From the IMG/VR virus record IMGVR_UViG_3300035666_000002: 64,000 nt of DNA; one strand, written 5' to 3'. Under the pieces are notes generated by a model that did not search any database, was not told the origin of the DNA, and was given only the letters and a program-made list of their open reading frames with translations. Shown here piece after piece: positions 2,002 through 51,083 of this stretch (position 1 is the stretch's first letter; every line of letters begins with the position of its first letter). Source of the stretch: a virus. The translations under genes and the position numbers were made by a program.

Positions 2002-2393
2002 ATAATATTATTCCTCAATACTTCTGCTATTCTCATATCAACTGGAATATCCGAAGAGTGAATATCTCTTCCTTTTATTCCTTTTACTACATTCGGCATA
2101 TTATTTAGAAATAACAAATACGTTTTTAACGCTGAATAATCATCTTCAATAATTTTATAGAACAACATTCTTGTCGCAGGTTCAACTCCAAACACATTAT
2201 ATAAAACAATCAAATGATTTATTACAAGTCTCTCTTTTAACTCACCTTCTTTTCTATACCTACGAAAAAGCCTCTTCAAATAATTGAACTTCTTCATGTC
2301 TTCTCTAAACTCACTCATTATGCAATTAGGTTTGTCATATGCTTTAATTGCATACATGACAAAATTGTCACTTGTTAAATCATCAAAAGACAT
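1998..2393 (-). CDS. Conserved T4-like phage hypothetical protein
   Basis: NFVMYAIKAYDKP...LKRLFRRY...LKERLVINHLIVLYNVFG, recalled as a conserved cyano/pelagi-myophage family. Confidence 0.8.
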   Translation of the reverse strand: MSFDDLTSDNFVMYAIKAYDKPNCIMSEFREDMKKFNYLKRLFRRYRKEGELKERLVINHLIVLYNVFGVEPATRMLFYKIIEDDYSALKTYLLFLNNMPNVVKGIKGRDIHSSDIPVDMRIAEVLRNNII

Positions 2394-2779
2394 TATTTCT
2401 CAGATTCGCCTTCGACTCCTGAATTTAGCATCTCTTCTGCACCTTCTTCATCAGTCACTTCAGCGTAAAAATCGTAATAACCATCATCGGTTGGATAATA
2501 CAGAATGTAAATATACTTATCTGTACCATCAATAGCTTCAACTATTTCTTCTCCTTCAGAACTTAAATCATATATTGGATGAAAATCTAAATTTTCAACC
2601 ATGAGTATTTTTCTGACCAAAGTAATTCCAGTTTCTGGTGTGTAAACTGGATCTTCCAATACAACATTCAACATCAGATTCAACTTTTCAACAACCGAAG
2701 AGTCTAATGAAGATGAATCTACCGGCACATCACCGGTAGATTGCTCATAATCTTCTTTAATAAAGTTTTTAAAATTCAT
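2393..2779 (-). CDS. Acidic hypothetical protein with capsid-targeting-like N-terminus
   Basis: Starts MNFKNFIKE. Confidence 0.65.
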   Translation of the reverse strand: MNFKNFIKEDYEQSTGDVPVDSSSLDSSVVEKLNLMLNVVLEDPVYTPETGITLVRKILMVENLDFHPIYDLSSEGEEIVEAIDGTDKYIYILYYPTDDGYYDFYAEVTDEEGAEEMLNSGVEGESEK

Positions 2780-3401: not shown

Positions 3402-4850
3402 TTATACTTTTACGATTTGTGAAGAGAGTTCAGGTTCAGATTGAAAAGTTTCTGGCTTTTCTTTTTTATTATCTTTACCTTTTTTAGCTAAATCTTTTAC
3501 CATACCTGCCGTCTTTGAAAGGCTTCTTTTAGCAGCAGTGTTCACTTTATCTTCAGCGTCTTCTGGCTCCATATTTTCTTTGATTCCAGCTTGTCTTTTC
3601 GCTGCGGCTTTAGCTAGTTCTTTAACCCTCTGCATAGGATCTTTTTTATTTTCTGAAGAAACTATTGTGGGATTCTTAAAAGGAACTTTTGGCTGACCAG
3701 ATATGAAACGACCCTCATGTGCACCGGATGCTGTAGCTTGTTCGGTAGCCATTTTGATACCTTTTTGTCTACGAGCAATAATATTTTTAGCAAAACTTCC
3801 ATATTCACCTTTTACATGAGGCTTTAATTCTTTAACTTCTGCTTTAGCCTTTTGAACATAAGATTTTTTTGTTTCTTGACTGATTTCATCAAGTTGTTCA
3901 ACTTCTTCTTTTTTCATTCTTTCACGCTTTGCAGCAGCAGTTTCTTTGCCAGATTTAGTGAAACCATATTTTGCATATTTGCCGCTTGCAAGATCATGAG
4001 CATAAGTTCCTGGTGCAGCCGGTGCTTTAATATTCTTTCTGGGTGTCACAATAATTTCACTCTCTTTAATCTCAGCTTGCTTCAAAATGCCTTTCACTAA
4101 AGGAGCTTTTAATTGTTTGTGACGAGGAACGGAAATATGATGTTCAGCTTCAGAATGTGTGTATACATCATGGCTGCCTGATGATCTCGACAACTTCCAT
4201 CCTTTTTTCTTCAAATGGGAATGAACTGCGCGAGTATCCATATTTGCACCAGGCATCTCATCGAGTTGTTCAACTTCTTCACTTACAGACTTCCAGCCAC
4301 CACCTTTTGATTTGTACCACTTAGCAGCCCAACCATTTGCGTAAGCAGAAGGATACACATCAAATTTAGATTTAGCTAGTGCTTTTGCGCGGGACCACAA
4401 TGCAGGATTTGTTGGTGCATTTTTTTCTTCGAGATATTCAACTTCTTCATTCATCGCAGATTTTGCTGCTTCAATAGAAGTGTAATATTTTTGTTTTTTG
4501 CCATTTTTATATAACGCAAATGCATCTTCACCATATTTTTCAATATGATTTTCACCTTTTTTGAATACAACTTCACCACCCGACTCTTTAATGTATTCTT
4601 CGTTCATTTCAGCAGTCATATAGTTTGCAACTGTAGAAATATAATCTTCAGCTAAAGTAATCTTAGACTGGCACCATTCAGGCAAATTAGTGTTTGGCTC
4701 TAGCATATCATGAAGACGTTGAGCATTATGCATGATACTACGAAGATCGGACATAGCCATATCACCTTCGTAGTCGTACTCGCCTCTATCTTCATCCTTG
4801 GATTCGGTGATGCCTCTCACCGAATCTGCAACTTTCGAAAATTTTTTCAT
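3402..4850 (-). CDS. Putative internal-head polyprotein containing a HicA-like RNase module
   Basis: Basic modules separated by EEVEQLDE/IKE/LEE linkers; HicA signature GW..SRSSGSH..Y.H...ISVPRH...ILKQA. Confidence 0.75.
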   Translation of the reverse strand: MKKFSKVADSVRGITESKDEDRGEYDYEGDMAMSDLRSIMHNAQRLHDMLEPNTNLPEWCQSKITLAEDYISTVANYMTAEMNEEYIKESGGEVVFKKGENHIEKYGEDAFALYKNGKKQKYYTSIEAAKSAMNEEVEYLEEKNAPTNPALWSRAKALAKSKFDVYPSAYANGWAAKWYKSKGGGWKSVSEEVEQLDEMPGANMDTRAVHSHLKKKGWKLSRSSGSHDVYTHSEAEHHISVPRHKQLKAPLVKGILKQAEIKESEIIVTPRKNIKAPAAPGTYAHDLASGKYAKYGFTKSGKETAAAKRERMKKEEVEQLDEISQETKKSYVQKAKAEVKELKPHVKGEYGSFAKNIIARRQKGIKMATEQATASGAHEGRFISGQPKVPFKNPTIVSSENKKDPMQRVKELAKAAAKRQAGIKENMEPEDAEDKVNTAAKRSLSKTAGMVKDLAKKGKDNKKEKPETFQSEPELSSQIVKV

Positions 4851-4852
4851 AC

Positions 4853-6259
4853 TTAGTCCTTCTTAGCCATTTTGGTAGCAGTAGCGTACATAACTTCTTT
4901 TGCTCTTTCACCATAACGCTGTTTGAATCCTTCAAGCCCCTTTTTCATAGACTTGACATATTTCTCGCGCTTTTCCATTTCACCTGAAGATAATGTGCGC
5001 TCATCAATTTGTTCGACTTCTTCTTTATTTAATTTACCGGTGCCTCTTACGACACCTCTGGAACCAGCACCAATACCCATTTTTTTAGTAGCTAATTCCA
5101 TACCTGACCTTCTTTTGGCAAATCTAGCTTGATGAGGATCTCTCATTTTCTGGATTTCATCGGAAGCTTTTGAGAGAGCCTTGTGTACGGCAGGTGCGTT
5201 TGTTTTGGAAATAGGATTAGCACCTCTCATTCCTGGAGCACCCTTATTAGTATTTGCCATTAAACGTTTTACTTTTTGATGTTCTATACCTAACTTATTA
5301 TCTTTGTCAAAGGCATCATACTGATCCTTTGCAGCAGCCTTTTTATAACGACTTAAAAGGTTTTTAGATAATTCATCTAATTGTTGATACTCTTCAGTTT
5401 GCATGAAGTTTTCGATATCTTCAATAGTAAATGTTTGTTCAACCGATTCTTGTTTTACAGCCTGAACTGCGGGCTTTGCAACTTCAGCTTTTGCTTTACC
5501 CTGAGATTTATCTTGTGCTTTCTTGATTTCAGCATTGAACTCATCTTGTGAAGCTTCTTCTTTGATTGGATGAAAACCCATCTCTGCATGTCTTTTTCTA
5601 TTTTCTGGAGTATCAACGATAACTTTTTCTCTTCCAGATGTCTTATGAACAAGCATAACTGTTTTTTGTTTTTTCTTTACTGGACCTAAATCATCACTCT
5701 CGGCAATTTCAACTTCTTCTTTTTTCAAACCACCGCGAGCTTCAGCCGATTTAAGCATTGCGATACGATCACGATAACCACCGGTCCCTGACTTCATGTG
5801 CTTAGAGGCTTCCATCTCACCTTTAGTAGGATTCTTGATGTGCTTCATTGTAGTTTTAGCTTGATGACTTTGTGCTTCATCAACCTGCTCAACTTCTTCT
5901 TTCTTCATTCCAGGTTCTTTTTGTGGTGCGCTCCCTGCTTTACCTTTAACTAAAGTACCTTTAGCTTGACGAGCTAGGAATTTAGCAGCACGTTCATCAT
6001 GACCAGGCATCAAACTTGTCATTGGAACTTTACCTTCAGGAGCCTTACGTTCATTTTCTGGATTGTCATAGCCTTTACCTTTGACAACTGCTTCCTTAAC
6101 TGGCTTATGACCAGCACGAAGTTTGGATAGATCGCCAGCATCAATCTTGTGTTTTGGTTCACTCATCTTAGCAATAGCTTTCTGTTTTGATGAAAGTTCT
6201 GCTTCCATGACTTGTTTTACTGCCTCTGCTACTGATTTTAGAATCTTATCGTTATACAT
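4853..6259 (-). CDS. Putative internal-head polyprotein (Lys-rich modules)
   Basis: Linkers EEVEQVDE, EEVEIAE, EEYQQLDE and EEVEQIDE. Confidence 0.7.
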   Translation of the reverse strand: MYNDKILKSVAEAVKQVMEAELSSKQKAIAKMSEPKHKIDAGDLSKLRAGHKPVKEAVVKGKGYDNPENERKAPEGKVPMTSLMPGHDERAAKFLARQAKGTLVKGKAGSAPQKEPGMKKEEVEQVDEAQSHQAKTTMKHIKNPTKGEMEASKHMKSGTGGYRDRIAMLKSAEARGGLKKEEVEIAESDDLGPVKKKQKTVMLVHKTSGREKVIVDTPENRKRHAEMGFHPIKEEASQDEFNAEIKKAQDKSQGKAKAEVAKPAVQAVKQESVEQTFTIEDIENFMQTEEYQQLDELSKNLLSRYKKAAAKDQYDAFDKDNKLGIEHQKVKRLMANTNKGAPGMRGANPISKTNAPAVHKALSKASDEIQKMRDPHQARFAKRRSGMELATKKMGIGAGSRGVVRGTGKLNKEEVEQIDERTLSSGEMEKREKYVKSMKKGLEGFKQRYGERAKEVMYATATKMAKKD

Positions 6260-6279: not shown

Positions 6280-7596
6280 TTATCTAGTAACTTCTTCCCA
6301 GTCCATAGAACCATATATGTCTGCACCATTGGAACTTGCGGCTGCGACTAAGGTTAATTCATATGGAGTGTTTGTCAAACCGTTTCTTTCTAACTGAAAT
6401 TTGAATAATGCTTCTTTTAGAATATCAATTGGTGCTGATGCTTGATTAGTTGATGCAGTAAAACCTGAAGCTAAAACTCTACCACCAGTAACCGATCCAC
6501 CATCTATCTTATATTCTACCGCAGAATTATCTCCAGCACTCACCCATGTTCCACCACCAGAGGTATTCGCACCTGCTCTTACTTGCCAATTGTAATATGC
6601 ATTTGAAATTCCCAAAATTGATAATGCTGTTAAAATAACAATCGCATCCAAACGATTAGGTGTTGTTTTTAATCTTATTGAAATAACAGGATAATATGTT
6701 CCTGCTGTGGGCAAATCTACTGGTGATGTAATTGGTACTTGAACTGCTTGTTGTGAGCCAAACAATTCATATCCTCCTTCAGACATTATAGAGGAACAAA
6801 TCTGACTCAGTGTTGAATTACTTGTGGTTATACCTGTATTTTTTATTTCGATTCTTAAAGGTAATGATGCCGTTGTCATATAAGGCACAGTATTTCTATT
6901 ATCATTGTGGAATATATGCACTGGTATCATTTTTCCATCCACAACAAAACCACAACGAACATCACCAACACCTAACCATTCAATGTCCATCCAAAAAATA
7001 TTTGTTTTACTTACATCCAATCCATTAACGTGTTCGGGACCACCAATTTGTGTTGAATAACCAGTACCATCAAACTTATCAATATTCCAATTAGATTGTG
7101 ACACTCTTGTTTCTGTGACTGTGCTTGAAGTATTTGACCTTAACACAAGATAATTTGTTGTGCCATCATTCTCTAAGTATATACCATTGCTTTGATTATA
7201 ATAACCAATTCTCTGACGAAGATTTGCTTTTGGTGCATTCATCGTAACAGAATTCAAAATTAACAGAGATTTACCTGGCTGATATGAAAACACCTTTGTT
7301 GTTTCTCGAATCACCTCAGCATTTGCAGTTGTACCAATAGTCAAATCAATTGTACTTTGATTCTCTACAAAAGTAACCGAACTGTTACCTGCGGTGTTTG
7401 CCGATACCCATAAACCATTATCAGAAAATCTGTGTGAACTATCAAAGAGTGTAAATGGTTGTGAAAAACGTAAACGCCCGAATGCATCCACCATAGCACC
7501 AGATGGTGTTAGACTATCAGACAACATATTCACCTCATAACGGGTGAATACTTGCCCCGAGTCTATTTTATTTTTATCGGTCCTAAACTGTGCCAT
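6280..7596 (-). CDS. Putative virion structural protein, beta-sandwich/lectin-like
   Basis: DAFGRLR...SYQPGKS...WLGVG motifs; S/T/N/G-rich. Confidence 0.55.
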   Translation of the reverse strand: MAQFRTDKNKIDSGQVFTRYEVNMLSDSLTPSGAMVDAFGRLRFSQPFTLFDSSHRFSDNGLWVSANTAGNSSVTFVENQSTIDLTIGTTANAEVIRETTKVFSYQPGKSLLILNSVTMNAPKANLRQRIGYYNQSNGIYLENDGTTNYLVLRSNTSSTVTETRVSQSNWNIDKFDGTGYSTQIGGPEHVNGLDVSKTNIFWMDIEWLGVGDVRCGFVVDGKMIPVHIFHNDNRNTVPYMTTASLPLRIEIKNTGITTSNSTLSQICSSIMSEGGYELFGSQQAVQVPITSPVDLPTAGTYYPVISIRLKTTPNRLDAIVILTALSILGISNAYYNWQVRAGANTSGGGTWVSAGDNSAVEYKIDGGSVTGGRVLASGFTASTNQASAPIDILKEALFKFQLERNGLTNTPYELTLVAAASSNGADIYGSMDWEEVTR

Positions 7597-7599
7597 TTA

Positions 7600-7965
7600 T
7601 CAGCAATTCCAACGGCGTAGAGCCTTGTTAATTGGGCTATCCGGGTCTCTCGCATTTTCTGGATTAGTCAAACGCTTTTTCATACCACCCATTCTTGAGC
7701 AGAAAGATTTGCGGCGTGATGCTCTCTTACCAGTTGGATTCTTTTCAGTGACAGCAGTTTTTAACTTAGAACCAGGATTCTCACGACGATATGCATTTAC
7801 AGCCTTTTGTGAAAGACCATCAGTTCTATCAGCCTTGTTTACTTTTTGCCAATCTTCGTTGACTTCTTCTTTCACACAAGAACCTGGAGAGTATGGCTTT
7901 TTACCCGGTACTGGTTTATGCCCAGGCCAGCATCTCTCTGCGATAAAATCTTTATAGCGTTTCAT
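7600..7965 (-). CDS. Basic putative internal protein (CWxG module plus RRKSFCSRM module, DUF6321-like)
   Basis: MKRYKDFIAE N-terminus; VKEEVNE linker; RRKSFCSRM...ALRRWNC. Confidence 0.65.
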   Translation of the reverse strand: MKRYKDFIAERCWPGHKPVPGKKPYSPGSCVKEEVNEDWQKVNKADRTDGLSQKAVNAYRRENPGSKLKTAVTEKNPTGKRASRRKSFCSRMGGMKKRLTNPENARDPDSPINKALRRWNC

Positions 7966-10670
7966 AGGTAATTTCTCTTTTTAAATGTTGAAAGACTGAT
8001 ACCTTTCTTTTGTAACTCATCTGCTTTTTGATCACCTATGCTTGCACCTGTTTCATCACCAGTTAATTCTTTGATAGGTGTTACTTTACCTTTTTTATTA
8101 ATCTTCTCACCCATATCGCGACCTAGACTTTCTCCAGCACCAGCCATCGAAAGCCCAGGCTCTATGCCTTTGTCGATTTCGTTGATTTTCTGTTTGAAGT
8201 TTTCTTTGATCTTTGTGAGGGTGATTTTGGTCTTTTTACCTGTTTCGGTGCCTCTGTCTTCACTACTTTCTTCGGTTCTTCCTTCTTCACTGGTTCCGTG
8301 ACTTTCGGGGCAACCGCAATGCTCGGTGATGGTAATTCTTCCTTCTTCTCTTCGACTTTGGTCGATGGTGTGGGTAGAATCAATATTTTGTCCTGTGCCG
8401 CTCTTATTGCTCCATCCAATGGATGTGGTTCCGTCGTATTCTTTGGGCGAAACAAATTCTTCAGAAAATTGAACATTTAAGCTCTCCTTTAATTTAACCA
8501 TGTAACCTTTTTCTGCTTTGACCACTTCACCGTTGTTTCGATGTGCATCTTTCGCAGCAGCATTCCTGAGTATATAGATTCTCGGTTTACCATTCAAAGC
8601 AATAAAAACCGATCCGTCATGTTTTACTTTTTTAATGCCAGTATACTCTTCACTAATCTTTCCTTTTCCATAATTGGAGACATTAATAGGTTCTCCTTTT
8701 CTTTCTGGATTAGGATCATGCCTACGTTTTGCGGAAACAGCAGATGCACGTTCTTTTTTACTTAATTGTGCTCTCTTTTCGTTAGACATACATTTTGGTT
8801 TAGCTTCACCAGGTTCTCTAGCACAAGGACCAATTGCTTCACCTTTACTATTGATTCTCTTCCATCCACCTTCTGGATGTTTCGGATTAAACCAATTTCT
8901 CAAATCTTCAAAAACTGGAACTTTTTTGCCTAGAGTTAATGCATCAAATGCTCTCGTATCTGAAAATTCATTTGTTTCTTCTTCTACTTCTTTCTCACCG
9001 TTACCTGTAAGCATACCAAAAGCTTGTTTCAATTCTTCTGGCGTATCAGCAGTAACACTAACAGTTATAGCTTCAAATAATTGTTCGAATTCATTATCCA
9101 AAGACTCTTTCATCTTCAATGGTTGTGAAGAAGCACTTACAGGTATACTTGCTGCCTTCTTTTCCATTTTCTGTTGTTGAACATGGGTTGGATCTTGTAC
9201 CAATTTACCGTGGACAGAATGATGAGTAACTTTTCCGTTCTTACCGTAGCGCCCATAGCCGTAATATTGGAGACCTAGTTTTCTAGCCTCATCAGCAGCA
9301 GTATCTCCGTGAGGAGCAACCATCTCTGTGCCTTTTCTGGGAACACCTAAAGTGTCTTTCTTACTCAATTCACCAGCAATCCATTCTTTTGCTTTTGGAT
9401 GTTCAGCAGGTTTTTTGACAAATTCTTGAACGCCTTTAAAAATGTCAAGCATTTCTTCTTTTTTTGCTTTTACAATTTCAGGTGATGCTGTACGCAAATC
9501 TTCTGAATTATCAAACTCACGATATTTGTCACCAAATATCTTTGCTAACTCAGGTCTTGCAGCTTGAACAGCATCCCATTTTTCTTTACGAATTTCTTCT
9601 GGAACAGTTCTACCACCTCTCTGACCACGTTCAATATTTCTCTGCTTCGATACTTCATCAGCAGTATTGACCATGACCATACCTGTTTCATATCCTAATT
9701 CTTCAAGTTCTTTCTTAATTCTAGCTATTTTCTTAGGATCATCACCTGTTCCATTGATAATAAGCCCGTTTCTACCAAGAAGAGCTAATTTTTGGCGTAA
9801 TTCAGTAATATCTTTGGCACGACCACGAACAACGTTTCTTAATTCTTTTTCCGATTCTGGCATTTTCTTATCAAGATTCTTTTTGTCCATCAAGAATTCA
9901 AGTGCTTTATCGGAGTTAATCTCGGTTAGCCCATGCCCAGCTAGTGTGTTATCAAGAACATAATCTTTACCAGAACCTGGACCACCAGCTAGAAACATTG
10001 CTTTGAAAATACCTTTGTCGTGAACACCTTCAGACAAAATGACTTGAATCATATTTTCAAAGTTTTCTTTAATACCCATACCTTTTCTAACATCCATCAT
10101 CATTTCCCTTGCAATTTTATCTGAAACATTAGATGGAACACCTTGTTTGAATTTAGCAAAATCACTTTTGCTTGCTGCTTCTCTCATTTTAGATGCTGAC
10201 ATTCCCTCAACTCCTTCAGCATCAGGATCTCTTTCGCCAGCAGAATGTACTTGAATTTTCGTGAAATTGAAAAGACCATGAGGACCTTTTACGTTATTGT
10301 AACGATTCAATAAACGTTCATATTCTGAGGTTCTATCTGATCCACCGACCATATGAAGTTCAGTCACACCTTTTTTATACAAAGATGCTGCTTGTGCTAA
10401 AAAGTTTGGTTGTTCAGAAGAAGATACGGAAAAATTGACACCAGGAAAGAAAGCTTTAACGTACTTTAGCTTTTCTTTTGCACTAAGAGGGTTCTTTTTT
10501 GAGTCGTGAGAGTGTGATAGAACGATTAGATGATCGGCATCGTTCTCTTTTGCGATTGCTTTGACTTTTTCCACAAGTTTTGCATGACCTGTGGTTGGAG
10601 GATTCATTCTTCCGAATGCAAAAACGCACTTTTTCTGTGCTTTTTCAGCTAAAAAATCTTTAAATTTCAT
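7962..10670 (-). CDS. Multidomain protein: HxGH nucleotidyltransferase + zeta-toxin-like P-loop kinase + small modules
   Basis: FGRMNPPTTGH...GSDR...MSASKMR (cytidylyltransferase-like); FLAGGPGSGK, INSD and R..RGGR.VPE (zeta/AAA_33-like); MKFKDFLAE N-terminus. Confidence 0.8.
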   Translation of the reverse strand: MKFKDFLAEKAQKKCVFAFGRMNPPTTGHAKLVEKVKAIAKENDADHLIVLSHSHDSKKNPLSAKEKLKYVKAFFPGVNFSVSSSEQPNFLAQAASLYKKGVTELHMVGGSDRTSEYERLLNRYNNVKGPHGLFNFTKIQVHSAGERDPDAEGVEGMSASKMREAASKSDFAKFKQGVPSNVSDKIAREMMMDVRKGMGIKENFENMIQVILSEGVHDKGIFKAMFLAGGPGSGKDYVLDNTLAGHGLTEINSDKALEFLMDKKNLDKKMPESEKELRNVVRGRAKDITELRQKLALLGRNGLIINGTGDDPKKIARIKKELEELGYETGMVMVNTADEVSKQRNIERGQRGGRTVPEEIRKEKWDAVQAARPELAKIFGDKYREFDNSEDLRTASPEIVKAKKEEMLDIFKGVQEFVKKPAEHPKAKEWIAGELSKKDTLGVPRKGTEMVAPHGDTAADEARKLGLQYYGYGRYGKNGKVTHHSVHGKLVQDPTHVQQQKMEKKAASIPVSASSQPLKMKESLDNEFEQLFEAITVSVTADTPEELKQAFGMLTGNGEKEVEEETNEFSDTRAFDALTLGKKVPVFEDLRNWFNPKHPEGGWKRINSKGEAIGPCAREPGEAKPKCMSNEKRAQLSKKERASAVSAKRRHDPNPERKGEPINVSNYGKGKISEEYTGIKKVKHDGSVFIALNGKPRIYILRNAAAKDAHRNNGEVVKAEKGYMVKLKESLNVQFSEEFVSPKEYDGTTSIGWSNKSGTGQNIDSTHTIDQSRREEGRITITEHCGCPESHGTSEEGRTEESSEDRGTETGKKTKITLTKIKENFKQKINEIDKGIEPGLSMAGAGESLGRDMGEKINKKGKVTPIKELTGDETGASIGDQKADELQKKGISLSTFKKRNYL
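8162..8476 (-). CDS. Overprinted Lys/Pro-rich small protein nested in an alternate frame of the 902-aa gene
   Basis: AAGGAGAG RBS 5 nt before the ATG; amphipathic MFNFLKNLF start and histone-like tail. Confidence 0.55.
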   Translation of the reverse strand: MFNFLKNLFRPKNTTEPHPLDGAIRAAQDKILILPTPSTKVEEKKEELPSPSIAVAPKVTEPVKKEEPKKVVKTEAPKQVKRPKSPSQRSKKTSNRKSTKSTKA

Positions 10671-10694: not shown

Positions 10695-11141
10695 TTATTT
10701 CTTATTTATCATTTTCACAAAGTCGGAGCAAACTCCATAATATTTTTCTAAAAGATATTTCTCTTTATCCCACACTTTTTCTGGCATGACAGTTATACAT
10801 TTACCCATTGTTATTTTTCCTGGATATGCCCAAATATAACCTTTTGATGTCAATGTATAACTGTCTTTATCGTGCCAAAAGCAATGAAAATAATTCTCCA
10901 TGCAAAAATTTAGTGCATCTATATTTTTACAGTGAACCCATAGTTTATCTTTTCTCTCTTCCAACCAACTTTTAGAAACACTATATTCTGGAGTATCATG
11001 TCCCAAATAAAATCCATTCTCATAAACACGAAAATCTACTTCGACAAAATAATTTCTTAAAGCCTTATCGATATAAGAAGGTTCATTTTCTTTCGTAGAA
11101 TCAGGACCTTCAAGATTCCCGCGATGAGATATTAGAATCAT
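10695..11141 (-). CDS. Glycerophosphodiester phosphodiesterase/PLC-like TIM-barrel protein
   Basis: ISHRGN, VEVD, LGHD, WVHCKN and GVCSDF motifs. Confidence 0.75.
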   Translation of the reverse strand: MILISHRGNLEGPDSTKENEPSYIDKALRNYFVEVDFRVYENGFYLGHDTPEYSVSKSWLEERKDKLWVHCKNIDALNFCMENYFHCFWHDKDSYTLTSKGYIWAYPGKITMGKCITVMPEKVWDKEKYLLEKYYGVCSDFVKMINKK

Positions 11142-12295
11142 TTTAGTACCTTATTCAGTCTAGTGAAATGTCTACCTCCATCAAAAGTAGTATTCAACCA
11201 AATATCAATCATCTTAGTAAACATATTTTCATCAACATATTTTGATGGAATTGCGAAGTGATTGGCACAATTGTGTTTTATTGCATATTCAGCAGTAAAC
11301 TCATCAAAAGTCAAAGCGGAGATTAATCCTTCACAGTGATTTGCTGCGATATTAACACCCTGCCCAGACCTACAAAAAGAAATACCATAATCACAATCAT
11401 TATTATTGATTAATCTAGCTGATTGACTTACATAATCAAAATAATCACATGGCTTATTTACATATGTTCCAACATCAATAACTGGTAAATTTCTATTTAT
11501 CAGAAGCTTTTTAGCAATCTCTTTCATTTCATATCCAGAATGATCGCAAGCTAATGCAATAGGTTTTTCTCCAAATCTAGAGATAACTCTTTTACAGAAA
11601 AACTCAAATGTTTCTGGTGTCCCAAGAATATGCATTTTCTCTGTATTTTCAGCAGTAACATGTAGATTATCACGAATCATTAAATTGTACATTGGTGCAA
11701 TATAGAATTCATTTTTGACCAACATATTCTTTTCGATGACTTCTCGCCCATACTTCAAAAACATTTTACCGCTTTTAAAGTAGTAGAGACCCACATTAGC
11801 TTCTTGTGATATGACTTCTTTTTCGACAACCCTGGTCACTTTTCCAAATTCATCTTTTTCTGTATAACTATGATCTGGGCTATTAGCCAAGAATGTTAAG
11901 AGAAAACCATCAGACTTTTCATCGATGGTTGCAGGATCAAACACAGGTTCAAAATAAACATCTGGTGTATAAATGAAGAGAGGTAAATCGTTATCAATAT
12001 AGTTTTCAGCAAGAACACAGGTTTCAAGTGCTCCTCTAGTTACTTTGTCGACCACAAAGATTTGAATGTCGGATCCGAATTTCTTTTTTAAAATTCTATC
12101 AATACTGAAATTGTAGATATGATCCAATCTAACAATAAAAATTAGATTGCATTCTCTAGTATTGATCGATGATAATGACCAATCAATAACGTGTTTGTGT
12201 TTTGCTAAAATCAGAGGCTTGGGCATTGTATAGCCAGCATCCAAAAATCTCTGTGCTTTACCAGCAATAGGTAGTAACAAATTATACTTTTTCAT
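11138..12295 (-). CDS. Sugar-phosphate nucleotidyltransferase fused to an RpiB-family sugar-phosphate isomerase
   Basis: N-terminal PIAGKAQRF...PKPLI, EK and ANVGLYYF; C-terminal ACDHSG, FCRSGQG..IAAN, HNCAN and FDGGRH. Confidence 0.85.
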   Translation of the reverse strand: MKKYNLLLPIAGKAQRFLDAGYTMPKPLILAKHKHVIDWSLSSINTRECNLIFIVRLDHIYNFSIDRILKKKFGSDIQIFVVDKVTRGALETCVLAENYIDNDLPLFIYTPDVYFEPVFDPATIDEKSDGFLLTFLANSPDHSYTEKDEFGKVTRVVEKEVISQEANVGLYYFKSGKMFLKYGREVIEKNMLVKNEFYIAPMYNLMIRDNLHVTAENTEKMHILGTPETFEFFCKRVISRFGEKPIALACDHSGYEMKEIAKKLLINRNLPVIDVGTYVNKPCDYFDYVSQSARLINNNDCDYGISFCRSGQGVNIAANHCEGLISALTFDEFTAEYAIKHNCANHFAIPSKYVDENMFTKMIDIWLNTTFDGGRHFTRLNKVLK

Positions 12296-12968
12296 TATAT
12301 TTCCTAATCATATTCGAAGTAAAAATGCAGGCATTCTGAATCGCATCTTCTTCAGTTAAATTCATATAGTATAGAGAATACAGAACGCCGGCAGCAAACA
12401 TATCACCCGCACCCAACACATTTGCATTTTTAACTATCATATTTTGCGGTATATTGTATGTATATTTGTTTTCTCTGCTTATATAATCACAACCATATTT
12501 TGTGTGAAAGAATACTCCTCTCTTAATATTACTGACTAGAAAATCTACATTCTGACAATCTTCATCAGAAACAAAGATGTAATCTAATAATTTAATTAGA
12601 TCCTGATCCTTCATTTCTTTACCTTTACAGGTATCAGCAGTTAAAACTCCTTCTAAAAAAGGAATCATTTGTAAATTCTCAAGTTCATTAATATACATGA
12701 AATGGTGAACTCTAGAATTAAGTAGTTTGATTGGTGTGATTAAATGCTCGTTCAAACTTGCAACAGAACTTCGATTGTTTTTCGATCTTTCTATGAAAAT
12801 ATCAGCATATCCCAAAGTCATAGGTGATATTCCTATTTGCAAGCCATTATCAATCTCATTAAAGGCACGAACGGTATTCGCTATGCCTCCTAGATTCATT
12901 GTATTAAAATCGCCATCAAAGATATTATCTACAACTAATTGCCCATAAATTGCAAAATCAAACATCAA
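12282..12968 (-). CDS. PfkB/ribokinase-family carbohydrate kinase
   Basis: C-terminal NVLGAGDMFAAG signature. Confidence 0.75.
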   Translation of the reverse strand: MMFDFAIYGQLVVDNIFDGDFNTMNLGGIANTVRAFNEIDNGLQIGISPMTLGYADIFIERSKNNRSSVASLNEHLITPIKLLNSRVHHFMYINELENLQMIPFLEGVLTADTCKGKEMKDQDLIKLLDYIFVSDEDCQNVDFLVSNIKRGVFFHTKYGCDYISRENKYTYNIPQNMIVKNANVLGAGDMFAAGVLYSLYYMNLTEEDAIQNACIFTSNMIRKYNEKV

Positions 12969-13501
12969 AACTTCTCTTTTTTATCTAATTCATAAACTCG
13001 ATTCAAATGTTCTTTTAAATCGTAAGGAGGTATCATATCTTTAGTAGTAAGGTATTCATACAATTCAGATATTAAATTATTACCGCCATTGTTTTTCAAA
13101 ACGATACAAATATTCTTCAATTCATTTACCGCATCAAATGGGCAAAACTTATATCCTATTAAAGACATCAATCCATAATCGAAAATATCATCACCAACAA
13201 AAAGAATTTCGTCTGAATTCACACCATACTCCTGACATATTTCATTCAAGTAATCTGCTTTGTCGGTGTGAGTTCCATTCTGACGATTGACTATAACATC
13301 AATCTTTCTATTTTCTGCGATTGAAACATTAAAAGGATCACCAGTTAAGAATATGACATTAATTCCTTGTGCTCTAAATCTCTTAATTGCAGTCCAATCT
13401 TTATCACAAAAAGTTTTTAATCTGACAGTTCCATCTCTATCATAATACTTCTTACCATCAGTTAAAACTCCATCAACATCAAGAATTATCAGTTTTATCA
13501 T
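12965..13501 (-). CDS. KdsC/YrbI-like HAD phosphatase
   Basis: LDVDGVLTDG, TG, K and VGDDIFD HAD motifs. Confidence 0.85.
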   Translation of the reverse strand: MIKLIILDVDGVLTDGKKYYDRDGTVRLKTFCDKDWTAIKRFRAQGINVIFLTGDPFNVSIAENRKIDVIVNRQNGTHTDKADYLNEICQEYGVNSDEILFVGDDIFDYGLMSLIGYKFCPFDAVNELKNICIVLKNNGGNNLISELYEYLTTKDMIPPYDLKEHLNRVYELDKKEKF

Positions 13502-18642: not shown

Positions 18643-18672
18643 AATATAGCTCCTTCATTTTATATAGTACGT

Positions 18673-18984
18673 TTATTGGCCTGGTGTGTCCTTTTTATAC
18701 TTCTTTACCAGGTGTTTTGTGCCCCATTGCCCTGCTCCTGCTACAGGTAAGATATCAGGATTTGGCGACTTCTTTTCTTCACTGACACTTTTATGTAGTT
18801 TAACTCCAGTAACTTTCTGAACTAGATCCCATGCTTCTTTATGTCTTTTATTTTTAACATGATCATCGAAAGATTTCTTTTGATTTTCATTAGCATGTTT
18901 TTTAAATTTAATTAGTTCCATAATACCTATATTACCAGCATATGCTGCTTCATGTAACACTTCAAATTGCTTAAAGTTATACAT
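18673..18984 (-). CDS. Small putative internal-head protein
   Basis: MYNFKQFEVLHE start, VSEE linker and C-terminal YKKDTPGQ. Confidence 0.55.
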   Translation of the reverse strand: MYNFKQFEVLHEAAYAGNIGIMELIKFKKHANENQKKSFDDHVKNKRHKEAWDLVQKVTGVKLHKSVSEEKKSPNPDILPVAGAGQWGTKHLVKKYKKDTPGQ

Positions 18985-30271: not shown

Positions 30272-30293
30272 AGCTTTCTCCTTGTTTAAGCGA

Positions 30294-30353
30294 GTTAAAA
30301 AAACCACCCCGAAGGCGTGGTGGGTAGTTTTATCTAGGGTACCCAGCCTAGAT
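30294..30353 (-). promoter_or_regulatory. Structured hsp20 5' leader: H-type pseudoknot, UUCG hairpin and U-tract
   Basis: AUCUAGG/CCUAGAU stem; loop UGGGUA pairs with downstream UACCCA; then CCAC-G-CC-UUCG-GG-GUGG and U7. Confidence 0.55.
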
Positions 30354-30371
30354 CCCATCCCGAGGATATCT

Positions 30372-48006: not shown

Positions 48007-49353
48007 TTACATAAGATTTGCGATCTTGAATGCTCTGTAGTAGTTGTTGCTTGTTACAGTAAGAGCACCGTTGCCTTGTGTAGTACCTTCAGCAAATGGG
48101 TTAGCAACTAGACCATAACGTGTCTTAAAGCCGATCTTTGGCTGGAAGGTGTTAGTGTCAACAGCGCGAACCATTTGTAGAGGAACGTATGGGCAGTAGA
48201 AAAGACCTGCGTCATAAGCATTCGAACCTTTGAAGCCGATGACTGCAAACTCAGATGTTGAACCTGTTGGGAAGTATGGGTCGATGTAGACCTTGATACG
48301 ACCGAAGAGAGTACCAGCAAATGTGTTGCCTGTATCATCAACTGTTAGGCTAACTTGCCCACCAAGAGCAGAGTTGTAATCAAGAATACCAGCCATTGCA
48401 AGAGCCGATGCTACGTCTGACGAGCAGATCATAACATTACCTTTACCACGACGAGTCAACTTAGCGATTTGATTAGCTTCACGCTCGATTTGGAATGCAA
48501 GACCTTTAACTTTCTCAACCATCCAACGACCATTTGAATCTGTGTCTAGGTCGAATGTACCAACAGTTGTTGTACCAACTTTACATCCAACTTTTGCAAC
48601 AGTGTAAATGGTGCGAAGAACTTCACGATTGATCTCAGCAAGAATTTCTGAAGAAAGAATATTGCTGAGTTCTGTTTCTGCGTCAAGACCGTGAACTGCT
48701 TTAAGGTCTTGTGCAAGTTCCATCGAATACTCTGCTTTAAGAGCGCGTGTCTTAGCAGTAACGGTAACTTTTTCAATGCTGAAACCCATCTCGTTAGGTG
48801 TCAAACCTTCAGCAACAGCAGTGGCCATGGCACCAACGGTGTTAGCATCAAACACGCCGTATGGGCGATCCGATGTTGAAGCCTTCATTGCAAGAGATTG
48901 CTGACCAGAAGCAGATGCAGCACCAGAATGTGCAGTATTAGCTTCATTGTAGAAAGCTTCTTGACCGAATACACTGGCTGTAGCAGTACGGTCTGTGCCG
49001 TATGTAGTACGCATTGCGAAGATCATGCCTGTAGGACCAGTCATAGGCTGAACACCGCAAACGTCATAAGCGATAAGGTTAGGAAGCGAACGACGAACCA
49101 AGCTGATAAGGATTGGGTCGAAACCGGCAACAGGACCTGCATTCTGAGCATCAGCACCACCGAAACCGCCTGTACCAGCAGAGTTGGTTGGAGCAGCTTC
49201 AGTAATAACGCCTGCTTCTTTTGCCATTGCTTGAATTTGGTTTTCAAGAACGACAGCGGTAACTGCGCGTTTGTAAGGATCGGTGATCTTTGGAAGATCA
49301 GCGTGTTCTAGGACCGGAGCCCATTTCTTTTGAAGTTGTTCGGAAAGATACAT
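48007..49353 (-). CDS. gp23: Major capsid protein gp23
   Basis: KWAPVL, GVQPMTGPTG, ELAQDLKAVHG and QPKIGFKTRYG. Confidence 0.98.
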   Translation of the reverse strand: MYLSEQLQKKWAPVLEHADLPKITDPYKRAVTAVVLENQIQAMAKEAGVITEAAPTNSAGTGGFGGADAQNAGPVAGFDPILISLVRRSLPNLIAYDVCGVQPMTGPTGMIFAMRTTYGTDRTATASVFGQEAFYNEANTAHSGAASASGQQSLAMKASTSDRPYGVFDANTVGAMATAVAEGLTPNEMGFSIEKVTVTAKTRALKAEYSMELAQDLKAVHGLDAETELSNILSSEILAEINREVLRTIYTVAKVGCKVGTTTVGTFDLDTDSNGRWMVEKVKGLAFQIEREANQIAKLTRRGKGNVMICSSDVASALAMAGILDYNSALGGQVSLTVDDTGNTFAGTLFGRIKVYIDPYFPTGSTSEFAVIGFKGSNAYDAGLFYCPYVPLQMVRAVDTNTFQPKIGFKTRYGLVANPFAEGTTQGNGALTVTSNNYYRAFKIANLM

Positions 49354-49375: not shown

Positions 49376-50395
49376 TTAAATTCTTGTTGTTTTTGAGATT
49401 GACTGAACGATAGAATTCATGAAAGAGTCGGTAACGACTGCTTTCTGACCGTCTTCTACTTGTTCGTTAAGTTGATTTTCATCGGCTTTCTTTACACCTG
49501 AAGGAAAATAATTCTCGCGAATTGTCTCAAGTTTTGTTCTATATTCTTCCTCTGTGGAAAAATCTACACTCTCTGCGAGCGATTTAATTTTTTCAACTTG
49601 AGTTGCGGTTAAGCCTTCGCATACTTCATGTGTTACTACTTCTTTAAAAGCTTCAATGAGAGCAGCACGATACTCTACACCACGCTCAACTTCTTCGTTA
49701 AGTTTGCTTTCAAGTTCGTCAACTTTACTTGCCAATTCATCAACGAGGTCAACTTTTTCGGCAGGAACATCAATATAATGTTCTGCAAATAGGTTACGAA
49801 GACCACCAATGAAGTCTTCAGTAATTTCTGTACGAATACCTTTTTCGATTGCGATTTCGTTTTCTTCCATCCATTCTTCGACAACGTAACCAAGGTAATC
49901 ATTTACTTTGTTTGTAAGGTCTTCTTTAAGGGATTCGATTGCTTCTTCTAACATAGAAGCATACTGACCTTCAATCTCTTCTTGAATTTGTGCTACGCGA
50001 TCTTGTACGCGAGCTTCGAAAATTGTGGAAACTTTTGTTTTGAATTCTTCAGAGATTGTTGCATCATCAGAAAACAATGCATCAACATCCTCTTTCATCT
50101 TCTTTTTCCATTCCATCTTTTCGTCGATTTGTTCCTCTTCAGAAACAATCTCTTCATTTTCAACTTCTGTTTCTTCCATTTTAGCGGAAGCATCAGAAGA
50201 TTTAGTTGTAGGTGCAGTTGCAGACTTGGATGTGAAAGTCATTTTGTGCGAATTATCATCAGGCTTAGCATTTTCTGGTGTTGGTCCACCAGCTACTTGA
50301 ACTTCGCCATCTAGCTTTTGTGAAGGCATAGCATTCTTACCCTTACCAGCAGCAAGAATTTCCGCAGCAGCCTCGAAAAGTTTGTTAGTAGCCAT
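49376..50395 (-). CDS. gp22: Prohead core scaffold protein gp22
   Basis: Acidic coiled-coil, EEF..K..TIFEA, YL.YV.EEW; synteny. Confidence 0.92.
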   Translation of the reverse strand: MATNKLFEAAAEILAAGKGKNAMPSQKLDGEVQVAGGPTPENAKPDDNSHKMTFTSKSATAPTTKSSDASAKMEETEVENEEIVSEEEQIDEKMEWKKKMKEDVDALFSDDATISEEFKTKVSTIFEARVQDRVAQIQEEIEGQYASMLEEAIESLKEDLTNKVNDYLGYVVEEWMEENEIAIEKGIRTEITEDFIGGLRNLFAEHYIDVPAEKVDLVDELASKVDELESKLNEEVERGVEYRAALIEAFKEVVTHEVCEGLTATQVEKIKSLAESVDFSTEEEYRTKLETIRENYFPSGVKKADENQLNEQVEDGQKAVVTDSFMNSIVQSISKTTRI

Positions 50396-50429: not shown

Positions 50430-51083
50430 TTAAAGTTTTGATAAAAAGTTTTCGAAGAGGCGAATCGCCACTTGTTCAATATCTTTTCTTGAGGCTTTTT
50501 GTATAGCATGTTTGGTTCTAGCAATGTCAACTTCAACAAAACGACCCTCAACAAACAACCATTCTTTATTTTCCATAATACCATTTACGAAAGCACCTGG
50601 TGCAGAAGGATCTGCTACCACATCAGCAGCGGTAGCCAATCTAAAATCATCAGCAACAATGCTGATGCCGTCTTCACCTGGTATCAAAGAACCCATACCT
50701 CTTGAAGATACACCTAAGCTAACACCCGACTCGATGAAATTTTTTACGATGTTGCCATAAGGTGTATCGAGAACTTTTGCTTTACCGATGAATCTATTTT
50801 GATCGTCTTCAACTAAAGATTCAATCTTGATGCAAACTCTTTCTAAATTTAAATTGGGTGTGTCAGGATGACCTAACTCACCAAGAGCACGGTTTGCATC
50901 AATATATTCATTAGTGTAACGCTTAACTTCTTCTCTTAGAGTAGATATTCTATATTTTCTTCTATTTCTGTTAGCTTCTTCACCAACAAGAAATGGACCT
51001 TGAATATAAAGATTCTTTTTTCCTGATTCTGTAGTTTCGGTTAAATACTTAACCTCTTCTACGCTTTCTTTTATAAGCTTCAT
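50430..51083 (-). CDS. gp21: Prohead core protease gp21
   Basis: NRNRR.Y, ALGELGHP, GVSSRG.GS and D.VADPS. Confidence 0.96.
   Translation of the reverse strand: MKLIKESVEEVKYLTETTESGKKNLYIQGPFLVGEEANRNRRKYRISTLREEVKRYTNEYIDANRALGELGHPDTPNLNLERVCIKIESLVEDDQNRFIGKAKVLDTPYGNIVKNFIESGVSLGVSSRGMGSLIPGEDGISIVADDFRLATAADVVADPSAPGAFVNGIMENKEWLFVEGRFVEVDIARTKHAIQKASRKDIEQVAIRLFENFLSKL

What the first reader, a model, noticed from the sequence alone, without database searches (positions are those of the whole stretch)
4062..4256. Intact orphan HicA toxin domain embedded between two predicted cleavage sites
Seen: a 65-aa module MPGANMDTRAVHSHLKKKGWKLSRSSGSHDVYTH...ISVPRHKQLKAPLVKGILKQAEIKE, bounded by QLDE and IKE. 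Known: HicA RNases have a dsRBD-like fold, a catalytic G-S-H histidine and a VPxH motif, and are normally paired with HicB; no hicB is recognisable in this window. Inference: a virion-delivered RNase, possibly kept latent in the polyprotein until head maturation, or a decoy that titrates host HicB.
Basis: partly seen in the sequence, partly recalled or inferred. Interest (0 to 1): 0.8.

Follow-up and report, generated by a model that had tools for sequence, protein, structure and literature searches.

The report
Antitoxin-less HicA in phage head-cargo protein
An uncultured marine T4-like phage carries a real HicA RNase-toxin domain with no antitoxin, as one cassette in a string of small modules joined by the cut-site motif of its own head protease; it is probably packed in the capsid, cut free and injected, but none of this has been measured.

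Summary
Window 4062-4256 (minus strand) encodes residues 199-263 of a 482-aa ORF (3402-4850).

**HicA identity.** It is a true HicA: Pfam PF07927 scores 49 bits against a cutoff of 27. The AF2 model matches solved HicA toxins at TM 0.83-0.88. The two residues essential for toxicity (Gly, His) are present.

**No antitoxin.** No HicB was found in the window, the overlapping contig or three complete relatives.

**Cassette behaviour.** The module is mobile in a very large metagenomic family.
- It occupies any position in 130-1097-aa proteins.
- It always starts at Met directly after [LIV]-x-E (40/40 loci; P1 Glu invariant, with synonymous codon variation).
- It is under purifying selection (dN/dS 0.16).

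**Link to the head.**
- The phage has a gp21-type protease.
- Its capsid protein's …VITE|AAP aligns with T4 gp23's E65|A66 cut site.
- A neighbouring small ORF starts MKRYKDFIAE, 7/10 identical to the T4 capsid-targeting sequence.
- In relatives, HicA follows such a leader directly.

**Verdict.** This is most likely a T4-internal-protein-like, protease-processed head cargo. Packaging, cleavage and RNase activity are all inferred.
- The "latent until maturation" idea is unsupported.
- The "HicB decoy" idea is unlikely.

This scan flagged the same architecture on other genomes. Rating: new variant of a known kind; interest about 0.6.

The parts
4062..4256 (-). HicA module (aa 199-263 of the carrier protein); predicted free fragment of 65 aa, pI 10.0, net charge +6
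   Evidence: Translation; Pfam PF07927 at 49-54 bits; AF2 plus Foldseek to solved HicA structures; fragment charge
4170..4178 (-). Codons GGC AGC CAT = Gly225-Ser226-His227, the HicA catalytic turn
   Evidence: Aligns with G22-S23-(H24A) of B. pseudomallei HicA 4c26. G22 and H24 are required for toxicity (PMC3969222). His is invariant in 34 aligned HicAs and in 40 unique loci, using CAT and CAC codons
4257..4280 (-). Acidic linker EEVEQLDE (aa 191-198) ending in L-D-E; predicted protease cut directly before Met199
   Evidence: [LIV]-x-E directly before the module Met in 40/40 unique loci. P1 Glu is invariant with 22 GAA / 18 GAG, and P3 L/I/V is encoded by six or more different codons
4062..4070 (-). 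I-K-E (aa 261-263), predicted cut at the C-terminal end of the module
   Evidence: Glu at this position in 35/40 loci, with V/I/M/L at P3. The other five have an [LIV]-x-E within about 14 residues downstream
3402..4850 (-). 482-aa carrier ORF. Contains a 16-aa leader ending I-T-E, a conserved acidic 'PEW' helical module, variable cassettes and a conserved C-terminal tail. Junction motifs end at aa 16, 89, 142, 198, 263, 322 and 425
   Evidence: Whole-module gains and losses at the linkers in alignment A2. All seven junctions lie in segments of pLDDT below 50 in the full-length model
4803..4850 (-). N-terminal leader MKKFSKVADSVRGITE (aa 1-16); candidate capsid-targeting propeptide
   Evidence: Length fits the 10-19-aa range of T4 IP propeptides (PMC9026906). 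The leader family MK[KE][FA]S..[VI]..S[IV]R recurs across homologues. Only 2/10 identical to the T4 CTS, so this is suggestive only
4853..6259 (-). Neighbouring 468-aa modular ORF with the same acidic linkers (EEVEQVDE, EEVEIAE, EEYQQLDE, EEVEQIDE); its stop codon is 2 nt before the HicA carrier's start
6280..7596 (-). Virion structural protein homologue (phrog_1645), 20 nt upstream of the modular ORFs on the same strand
   Evidence: E 1e-135; annotated 'virion structural protein' in S-RIM8 and S-SRM01; synteny in 49 loci
7600..7965 (-). 121-aa ORF (DUF6321) beginning MKRYKDFIAE, 7/10 identical to the T4 capsid targeting sequence MKTYQEFIAE
   Evidence: null maximum of 4-5/10 over 156 ORF N-termini and 459 internal-Met decamers; T4 CTS sequence from PMC8442874
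7962..10670 (-). 902-aa cytidylyltransferase + P-loop kinase (Zeta_toxin/AAA_33) protein with leader MKFKDFLAE. In relative P0134 the HicA cassette is inserted exactly at this protein's ...TPIKE|LTGDE junction
50430..51083 (-). gp21-type prohead protease (38% identical to T4 gp21; GVSSRG-x-GS and GEL-x-HP blocks conserved)
   Evidence: phrog_207, E 4e-69; alignment to T4 gp21
48007..49353 (-). Major capsid protein. Its propeptide junction ...GVITE52|AAP aligns with the T4 gp23 ...FLTE65|A66 maturation site
49376..50395 (-). Scaffold (gp22-like), rich in L/I-x-E (13 sites), including SEEEQIDE|K, which resembles the cargo linkers

Best explanation
The HicA domain is one cargo cassette of a T4-internal-protein-like head protein.

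**Proposed mechanism.**
1. The 482-aa precursor is made together with the adjacent virion gene and recruited into the prohead core. Recruitment would use its N-terminal leader and/or the conserved acidic 'PEW' module.
2. The phage's gp21-type prohead protease cuts it after the L/I-x-E junctions.
3. This frees a 65-aa, strongly basic HicA (Met199 to Glu263) that stays with the packaged DNA.
4. HicA is ejected into the next host cell and acts as an antitoxin-less endoribonuclease at the very start of infection. Its target would be host mRNA (shut-off) or a host defence RNA.

**Shown here.** HicA identity, fold and catalytic residues; purifying selection; absence of HicB; cassette-like mobility with protein-level conservation of the junction motif; a T4-type protease with T4-type specificity at the capsid-protein site; T4-type targeting leaders in the same gene block.

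**Inferred.** Packaging, cleavage, ejection, RNase activity and its target.
For: **1. Genuine, probably active HicA.**
- Pfam 49 bits against a cutoff of 27.
- AF2 pLDDT 82.8; Foldseek TM 0.83-0.88 to HicA crystal structures.
- Gly225 and His227 align with G22 and H24, which are essential for toxicity.
- Median dN/dS 0.16 over 543 pairs; His kept in 40/40 unique loci.

**2. No antitoxin.** No HicB (PF15919, PF05534) in G001 or in three complete terminal-repeat genomes, each with exactly one embedded HicA. None among the window's small ORFs.

**3. Cassette behaviour.**
- In 105 of 121 homologues the module starts at positions 15 to 469, always at Met after (L/I)(D/E)E, with different neighbours.
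- 77 of the 86 best 50%-identity clusters are proteins longer than 160 aa.
- Whole-module indels occur at the linkers, and a different module fills the HicA slot in P0080.

**4. Junction constrained as protein, not DNA.** P1 Glu is 40/40 with 22 GAA and 18 GAG. P3 L/I/V is 40/40 with six or more codons.

**5. Protease premise.**
- A gp21 homologue is present.
- MCP ...VITE|AAP aligns with T4 gp23 E65|A66.
- gp21 cuts after L/I-X-E (PMC9026906).

**6. Targeting.**
- orf121 starts MKRYKDFIAE, 7/10 identical to the T4 CTS against a null maximum of 4-5/10.
- In L016/L021 a 17-aa leader MKSFTQFINEEVEILDE directly precedes HicA.
- Any protein fused to the T4 CTS is retained in the T4 capsid (PMC8442874).

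**7. Context.** The gene is tightly packed with, and syntenic to, a virion structural gene in 49 loci.

**8. Structure and charge.**
- The full-length model is beads on a string, with all seven junctions in low-confidence segments.
- The HicA fragment has pI 10.0, like the basic T4 IPs.

**9. Precedent.** T4 RegB is a toxin-fold (RelE/YoeB) RNase with no known antitoxin (PMC3014915).
Against: - There is no direct evidence that this protein is in virions or is cleaved. No cultured phage in the collection carries the embedded module, so no proteome can be consulted.
- The carrier's own leader is only 2/10 identical to the T4 CTS.
- The plain L/I-x-E count in the carrier (1.9 per 100 aa) is not above the proteome range. 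Only the extended acidic linker is specific.
- No T4-type late promoter TATAAATA lies upstream.
- The C-terminal boundary is mostly V-x-E, which is not the canonical L/I.
- A ribosome-independent RNase delivered with the genome would also threaten the phage's own early transcripts.
- The HicA cassette also occurs inside a cytidylyltransferase/kinase enzyme (P0134), and that protein's packaging is itself unproven.
Confidence: 0.5

Rival explanations
1. Unprocessed cytoplasmic multi-domain protein. The acidic stretches are simply flexible or helical linkers of a modular host-takeover protein. HicA acts in cis inside the producing cell, for example to degrade host or early phage mRNA in the way T4 RegB does. 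The protein is never packaged.
For: - No proteomic evidence of packaging, and the carrier's own leader is weakly CTS-like.
- No late promoter was found.
- HicA also occurs fused inside a metabolic-looking enzyme.
- The RegB precedent is a cytoplasmic phage RNase of toxin fold.
- N-terminally extended HicA can remain toxic.
Against: - A generic linker would not need an invariant P1 Glu and a P3 L/I/V kept through synonymous codon change.
- The same motif marks the MCP maturation site.
- T4-type CTS leaders lie in the same block and sit directly before HicA in relatives.
- The gene is syntenic with a virion gene in 49 loci.
Confidence: 0.2
2. Packaged and processed, but not an enzyme in practice. 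The basic dsRBD-like HicA fold serves as a nucleic-acid-binding internal protein that helps condense or accompany DNA, like the basic T4 IPs, and RNA cleavage is irrelevant.
For: - The fragment is very basic (pI 10.0), as are most sister fragments.
- The HicA fold is a dsRBD-like RNA-binding fold with a positive surface (PMC3969222).
- The T4 IPs are basic, DNA-associated proteins (PMC8442874).
Against: - The two residues needed for toxicity but not for folding (Gly and His of G-x-H) are kept in essentially all of the more than 100 diverged copies. The one exception is P0012.
- dN/dS is 0.16 across the whole domain.
Confidence: 0.12
3. An internal translation start at Met199 produces a free HicA-led protein independently of proteolysis. 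The invariant Met would be a start codon rather than a P1' residue.
For: - Met at the first module position is 40/40.
- T4 itself uses internal starts in genes 17 and 21 (annotation; PMC9026906).
Against: - There is no Shine-Dalgarno-like sequence at a suitable distance upstream; the sequence there is ...CAACTCGATGAG ATG.
- An internal start would yield HicA still fused to the downstream modules.
- The Met may simply be a relic of a captured free-standing hicA gene. The closest free forms (P0178, P0181) have related N-termini: MVGASMGNTR (P0178) and, internally, MFGANVKTKE (P0181).
Confidence: 0.05
4. One reading: a decoy that titrates the host's HicB antitoxin.
For: - The domain keeps the overall HicA fold that HicB recognises.
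- No cognate phage HicB exists.
Against: - Sequestering HicB would unleash the host's own HicA and favour abortive infection.
- A decoy has no need for the invariant catalytic Gly and His.
- The host is unknown, so no host HicAB can be named.
Confidence: 0.03

Closest known systems
Phage T4 internal proteins IPI, IPII, IPIII and Alt (capsid targeting sequence plus gp21 processing, ejection with the DNA)
   Same: - Same type of phage, with a gp21-type protease whose MCP cut site aligns with T4's.
- Short N-terminal leaders ending in L/I-x-E; one neighbour is 7/10 identical to MKTYQEFIAE.
- Basic cargo fragments.
- A hypervariable locus with only the targeting and processing signals conserved (PMC3012670; PMC9026906).
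- Alt is an enzyme cargo cut at both ends, as predicted here for HicA.
   Different: - T4 IPs are single-cargo proteins cut once, and Alt is cut at its two ends. Here several unrelated cassettes are strung in one precursor with a repeated extended acidic linker (EE-x-E-x-L-D-E).
- The cargo is a TA-type RNase toxin, not reported for T4.
- There is also a conserved acidic PEW module and a conserved C-terminal tail.
- Packaging is unproven here.
HicA toxins of type II HicAB toxin-antitoxin systems (e.g. B. pseudomallei HicA 4c26/6g26, E. coli HicA 6hpb, T. thermophilus TTHA1913 1whz)
   Same: - Pfam family, dsRBD-like alpha-beta3-alpha fold, G-x-H catalytic turn, V-P-x-H motif and basic surface.
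   Different: - It is not a free-standing ~60-aa gene but an internal segment of a 482-aa ORF.
- No HicB is adjacent or anywhere in complete related genomes.
- It sits in a lytic T4-like phage next to virion genes.
- It forms its own sub-clade, at most 58% identical to the nearest free-standing forms.
T4 RegB endoribonuclease
   Same: A T4-type phage uses a small RNase with a TA-toxin fold (RelE/YoeB) and no known antitoxin to inactivate mRNA (PMC3014915).
   Different: - RegB is an early, free, cytoplasmic protein with a different fold.
- It is not linked to head genes or to protease motifs.
Proteolytically matured ejection and inner-body proteins of giant phages (phiKZ, 201phi2-1, SPN3US)
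   Same: Many head-internal proteins are cut C-terminal to Glu by a gp21-related protease, with redundant sites, and are then ejected into the host (PMC9026906; abstracts).
   Different: - The motif differs (S/A/G-x-E, from my own knowledge).
- Those cargoes are large proteins, not shuffled arrays of 50-100-aa cassettes.
- No HicA has been reported among them.

Membership tests
HicA_toxin (Pfam PF07927) | Profile match above the curated gathering score | tested here: met
   49.2 bits for the full protein and 53.7 bits for the module, against a cutoff of 27; profile positions 3/4-58 of 58
HicA_toxin (Pfam PF07927) | dsRBD-like alpha-beta-beta-beta-alpha fold | tested here: met
   AF2 pLDDT 82.8 with elements H8-18, E21-26, E29-33, E40-44, H51-61. 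Foldseek top seven hits are all HicA, TM up to 0.88, rmsd 1.3-1.6 A
HicA_toxin (Pfam PF07927) | Gly and His of the beta1-beta2 G-x-H turn, required for toxicity in B. pseudomallei HicA | tested here: met
   Gly225 and His227 align with G22 and H24. Both are kept in 40/40 unique loci
HicA_toxin (Pfam PF07927) | Endoribonuclease activity and growth arrest on expression | not testable with these tools
   Needs expression and an RNase assay of the module against a His227Ala mutant
Type II HicAB toxin-antitoxin system | Small free-standing toxin gene in an operon with a HicB antitoxin | tested here: not met
   The domain is internal to a 482-aa ORF. No PF15919 or PF05534 match in G001 or in five related records, three of them complete. 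No HicB among the window's small ORFs
T4-type internal (CTS-targeted, gp21-processed) head proteins | Genome encodes a gp21-family prohead protease with L/I-x-E specificity | tested here: met
   phrog_207, E 4e-69. 38% identity to T4 gp21, and the MCP site VITE|AAP aligns with gp23 E65|A66
T4-type internal (CTS-targeted, gp21-processed) head proteins | N-terminal 10-19-aa capsid targeting propeptide ending in L/I-x-E | tested here: inconclusive
   The carrier has a 16-aa leader ending I-T-E, but it is only 2/10 identical to MKTYQEFIAE. The neighbour orf121 is 7/10 identical. In L016/L021 relatives, HicA directly follows MKSFTQFINEEVEILDE
T4-type internal (CTS-targeted, gp21-processed) head proteins | Actual cleavage by the prohead protease | not testable with these tools
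   Only motif presence and its protein-level conservation are shown
T4-type internal (CTS-targeted, gp21-processed) head proteins | Presence in the mature virion and ejection into the host | not testable with these tools
   No cultured carrier of the module exists in the phage collection. No paper was found
T4-type internal (CTS-targeted, gp21-processed) head proteins | Hypervariable cargo with conserved targeting and processing signals; basic mature products | tested here: met
   Module shuffling at conserved linkers. The HicA fragment has pI 10.0, and five of the seven post-leader fragments are basic

The most novel reading that the evidence does not exclude
Marine and freshwater T4-like phages run a general 'cargo-cassette' system. 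Unrelated small effectors, among them an antitoxin-less HicA RNase, are recombined as cassettes into head-targeted polyproteins. The prohead protease then dices these at a dedicated acidic linker into separate injected effectors. A virion would therefore deliver a customisable toxin and anti-defence arsenal ahead of any gene expression.
Probability: 0.4. Interest if true: 0.8.

Novelty: new variant of a known kind. Interest (0 to 1): 0.6.

Why it matters
If the reading is right:
- Abundant ocean phages deliver a pre-made RNase toxin with their DNA. That would be a way to hit host mRNA or RNA-based defences before any phage gene is expressed.
- A type II toxin would be used offensively by a lytic virus without any antitoxin. 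The control would presumably come from sequestration in the capsid.
- The T4 internal-protein paradigm (one leader, one cargo) would extend to multi-cargo polyproteins with a defined linker 'grammar'.

The family is very large. More than 5,000 database proteins share modules with the carrier, and the module itself defines 86 clusters at 50% identity with E of 1e-10 or better. The hypothesis is directly testable by virion proteomics and a simple protease assay. The linker and leader rules could also help annotate many 'hypothetical' phage proteins.

Tried and rejected
- **Close DNA relatives among 50,697 phage records:** none.
- **tblastn of the carrier and of the module against cultured phages:** only two short non-HicA modules hit cyanophages, and only free-standing hicA genes of temperate phages hit the module. 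No virion proteome can therefore be consulted.
- **T4 late promoter TATAAATA:** three hits in 64 kb, fewer than expected by chance, and none upstream of this block. The sigma-70 and terminator scan was uninformative.
- **Plain L/I-x-E density as a statistic:** not enriched in the carrier. Dropped in favour of the extended linker and its conservation.
- **Pfam on each predicted fragment:** only a sub-threshold DUF5872 hit for aa 143-198, and a non-significant Phi29-scaffold hit for the PEW module.
- **The single HicB_lk hit in G004** (15 bits, three stop codons) is noise.
- **P0204** (2457 aa, low-complexity repeats) was ignored as compositional noise.
- **A Z-base (PurZ) pathway near the PF18909 gene** was looked for and not found.
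- **Not used:** sequencing-run and read-laying tools, because RNA coverage cannot show proteolysis; and complex prediction, because no binding claim is made.
Full report
**1. The observation**

It is not a gene of its own. It forms residues 199-263 of a 482-aa ORF, window 3402-4850 (-). It is preceded by ...EEVEQLDE and ends ...AEIKE.

Pfam calls HicA_toxin (PF07927) at E 5.5e-13 and 49.2 bits against a gathering score of 27. The match covers profile positions 4-58 of 58. PHROGs places it in phrog_353 'toxin'.

An AF2 model built on an alignment with 33 free-standing relatives has mean pLDDT 82.8 and the alpha-beta-beta-beta-alpha order. Its seven best PDB matches are all solved HicA toxins:
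- Burkholderia 6g26/4c26
- Thermus 1whz
- Streptococcus 5yrz
- HicA3 4p78
- E. coli 6hpb

TM-scores reach 0.88.

The G-S-H turn (aa 225-227, nt 4170-4178) aligns with G22-S23-H24 of B. pseudomallei HicA. G22 and H24 are the two residues shown to be required for toxicity, and 4c26 is the H24A mutant (PMC3969222).

**2. What genome this is**

The window is part of an uncultured T4-like myovirus of 33-39% G+C. Identified genes include:
- major capsid protein 48007-49353
- scaffold 49376-50395
- gp21-type prohead protease 50430-51083
- portal, tail tube, sheath and large terminase
- DNA polymerase and helicases

The capsid protein is about 63% identical to those of marine cyanomyoviruses. A 57-kb IMG/VR contig (G001) holds the identical gene and is estimated to be 34% complete.

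**3. No antitoxin**

- No HicB family (PF15919, PF05534) is detectable in G001.
- None is detectable in five long related records, three of them complete genomes with terminal repeats (162, 172 and 214 kb). Each of the five has exactly one embedded HicA. The one sub-threshold hit (15 bits, three stop codons) is noise.
- Pfam scans of the window's small ORFs outside the part covered by G001 also give no HicB.

So 'orphan' is right.

**4. The module is a mobile cassette in a huge family**

The large-database search returned 5,127 proteins at E of 1e-3 or better among 8,000 scored. Nearly all of the top 120 carry PF07927.

In 105 of 121 proteins the full module is present:
- It starts anywhere from residue 15 to residue 469.
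- It always begins MPGANM... or MPESSM... directly after (L/I)(D/E)E.
- Its upstream and downstream neighbours differ from protein to protein.

An exhaustive phmmer of the module against 1.84 billion cluster representatives found 86 clusters at E of 1e-10 or better. Of these, 77 are proteins longer than 160 aa. The nearest free-standing HicAs (P0178, 69 aa; P0181, 88 aa) are at most 58% identical.

An alignment of 17 colinear homologues shows whole modules gained or lost exactly at the acidic linkers, and an unrelated module in the HicA slot of P0080. A 'frame' stays constant: the N-terminal leader, an acidic helical 'PEWxQSKITLAEDY' module and a C-terminal ...EPELSSQIVKV tail.

In 49 IMG/VR loci the gene order is conserved: cytidylyltransferase/kinase, small ORF, virion structural protein, modular ORF(s), orf196, orf128, orf131. 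The modular ORFs therefore occupy a fixed, variable slot next to a virion gene. In the window they are separated from it and from each other by only 20 and 2 nt.

**5. Selection**

- Across 40 unique module DNAs, median dN/dS is 0.16 (543 pairs with usable dS).
- The catalytic His is invariant, encoded by both CAT and CAC.
- The only exception seen in the wider protein set is one cluster with Tyr (P0012).

This argues for a working active site rather than a mere basic RNA-binding fold.

**6. The junctions**

gp21 of T4 cuts after L/I-X-E. T4 internal proteins carry 10-19-aa N-terminal targeting propeptides, and Alt is trimmed at both ends (PMC9026906).

The specificity premise could be tested here:
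- The window protease is 38% identical to T4 gp21, with the catalytic blocks conserved.
- The capsid protein's ...GVITE52|AAP aligns exactly with T4 gp23 ...FLTE65|A66.

At the HicA N-terminal junction:
- P1 is Glu in 40/40 loci, with 22 GAA and 18 GAG.
- P3 is L/I/V in 40/40, encoded by six or more different codons.

The constraint therefore acts on the protein, not on a DNA recombination signal.

At the C-terminal junction, Glu is present in 35/40 loci with V/I/M/L at P3. In the other five an [LIV]-x-E lies within about 14 residues downstream.

The extended linker EE-x-E-x-[LIV]-[DEA]-E occurs three times in this ORF, twice in the neighbouring 468-aa ORF and once in a distal ORF (61221-62174). 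The scaffold has a near-match, SEEEQIDE|K. The plain L/I-x-E count is not enriched and is not used as evidence.

The full-length AF2 model is beads on a string (pLDDT 51, pTM 0.21). HicA is the best-defined island, and all seven proposed junctions (16, 89, 142, 198, 263, 322, 425) fall in segments below pLDDT 50, which make up 53% of the chain.

**7. Targeting**

The T4 capsid targeting sequence is MKTYQEFIAE, and any protein fused to it stays in the capsid (PMC8442874).

- The small ORF two genes upstream (7600-7965, DUF6321) begins MKRYKDFIAE, 7/10 identical. The best match among the other 155 ORF N-termini on both strands and 459 internal-Met decamers is 4-5/10, and the 4/10 cases include the scaffold and the protease.
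- The 902-aa cytidylyltransferase/kinase protein begins MKFKDFLAE.
- Relatives of orf121 begin MKSFISFITE, MKSFKDYMTE and MKTFKELMLE.
- In the L016/L021 sub-clade HicA sits in this small-ORF slot directly behind a 17-aa leader: MKSFTQFINEEVEILDE|MPGAN....
- In P0134 the HicA cassette is inserted in the 902-aa homologue exactly where the window protein reads ...TPIKE|LTGDE....

The carrier's own leader (MKKFSKVADSVRGITE) has the right length and ends I-T-E, and it belongs to a recurrent leader family. But it shares only M-K with the T4 CTS. Its targeting role rests on context, not on identity.

**8. Best explanation and its limits**

Taken together, the most economical reading is a T4-internal-protein-like head cargo. 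The precursor would be recruited to the prohead core and cut at the L/I-x-E junctions. That would release a basic (pI 10.0, +6) 65-aa HicA, which is ejected with the DNA and cleaves RNA in the newly infected cell.

T4 offers two precedents:
- enzyme cargo cut at both ends (Alt)
- a toxin-fold RNase without an antitoxin (RegB; PMC3014915)

I put about 0.5 on this.

Nothing here shows packaging, cleavage, ejection or RNase activity. No cultured phage in the collection carries the embedded module. A PEW-module protein does exist in the syntenic slot of pelagiphage HTVC008M, gp132, which also has ...EQLDE|AKSK, but I know of no virion proteome for it.

The 'latent until maturation' idea has no support:
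- The model shows nothing packed on HicA.
- His-tagged HicA stayed toxic.

Sequestration in proheads, or simple tolerance late in infection, would do as well. The 'HicB decoy' idea is unlikely, for the reasons given under rivals.

**9. Comparison with known systems and novelty**

- The domain is a member of the HicA family by profile, fold and catalytic residues.
- It is not a member of a HicAB toxin-antitoxin system.
- The carrier works like a T4 internal protein or Alt. It differs in being a multi-cassette polyprotein with a dedicated acidic linker and a toxin cargo.

Full-text searches found no paper describing HicA embedded in T4-like head proteins or polyproteins. The library lacks most subscription journals, so this is not proof of absence.

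This scan has noted the same architecture on other genomes, with similar unverified verdicts. My tests were run independently of those notes.

I rate it a new variant of a known kind, interest about 0.6: a large, coherent and testable pattern whose key mechanistic steps remain inferred.

Noticed in passing
window 7962-10670 (-): A 902-aa protein fusing a cytidylyltransferase-like domain (aa 8-206) with a P-loop kinase (Zeta_toxin/AAA_33, aa 223-371). It has a long modular C-terminal half and a CTS-like start, MKFKDFLAE. In relative P0134 a HicA cassette is inserted at its ...TPIKE|LTGDE junction. It may itself be a head-packaged enzyme.
   Followed up: partly
window 7600-7965 (-): A 121-aa DUF6321 protein starting MKRYKDFIAE, 7/10 identical to the T4 capsid targeting sequence, followed by an RCWPGHKPVPGK motif. 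Homologues occur in more than 500 cyanophage and pelagiphage records. It is a candidate single-cargo internal protein.
   Followed up: partly
window 18984-20222 (-) and 2393-2779 (-): Two further ORFs start with the same kind of leader. The 412-aa DUF6267 protein starts MNFKDFIVE|SS... and the 128-aa ORF starts MNFKNFIKE|DY.... They may belong to the same targeted set, or the leader may partly reflect AT-rich start-codon context.
   Followed up: no
window 38147-39475 (-): A 442-aa phage protein with a DruA domain (Druantia defence protein, PF14236; E 1.8e-20, aa 143-373). A defence-system domain is unexpected in a lytic phage.
   Followed up: no
window 32991-33362 (-): A PF18909 domain (N-terminal domain of dATP/dGTP diphosphohydrolases, E 3.5e-33). 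No PurZ-like gene is nearby; the neighbours are an AAA_5 ATPase and the sliding clamp and clamp loader. There is therefore no evidence for a Z-base pathway.
   Followed up: partly
window 11138-12295 (-) and 12282-20222: A nucleotidyl-transferase + RpiB (ribose/galactose isomerase) fusion sits at the edge of a lower-GC block (33-35%) of unannotated ORFs. This may be a sugar or nucleotide-sugar modification island.
   Followed up: no
window 40459-41046, 58487-58921, 29822-30358, 27945-28403 (-): Auxiliary genes typical of marine myoviruses: peptide deformylase, a ferritin-like protein between the large terminase and a small-terminase-like gene, Hsp20, and dCMP deaminase.
   Followed up: no
L060 (Pelagibacter phage HTVC008M) 4770-5888: gp132 (372 aa) lies in the syntenic slot after the cytidylyltransferase and a small ORF. 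It carries a PEW-like module (DVEEWVQNKITKATDY) and ...IDLEQLDE|AKSK, but no HicA. It is a cultured handle for testing packaging and cleavage.
   Followed up: partly
window 61221-62174 (-): This 317-aa ORF, far from the cargo block, contains one copy of the strict acidic linker motif EE-x-E-x-[LIV]-[DEA]-E.
   Followed up: no
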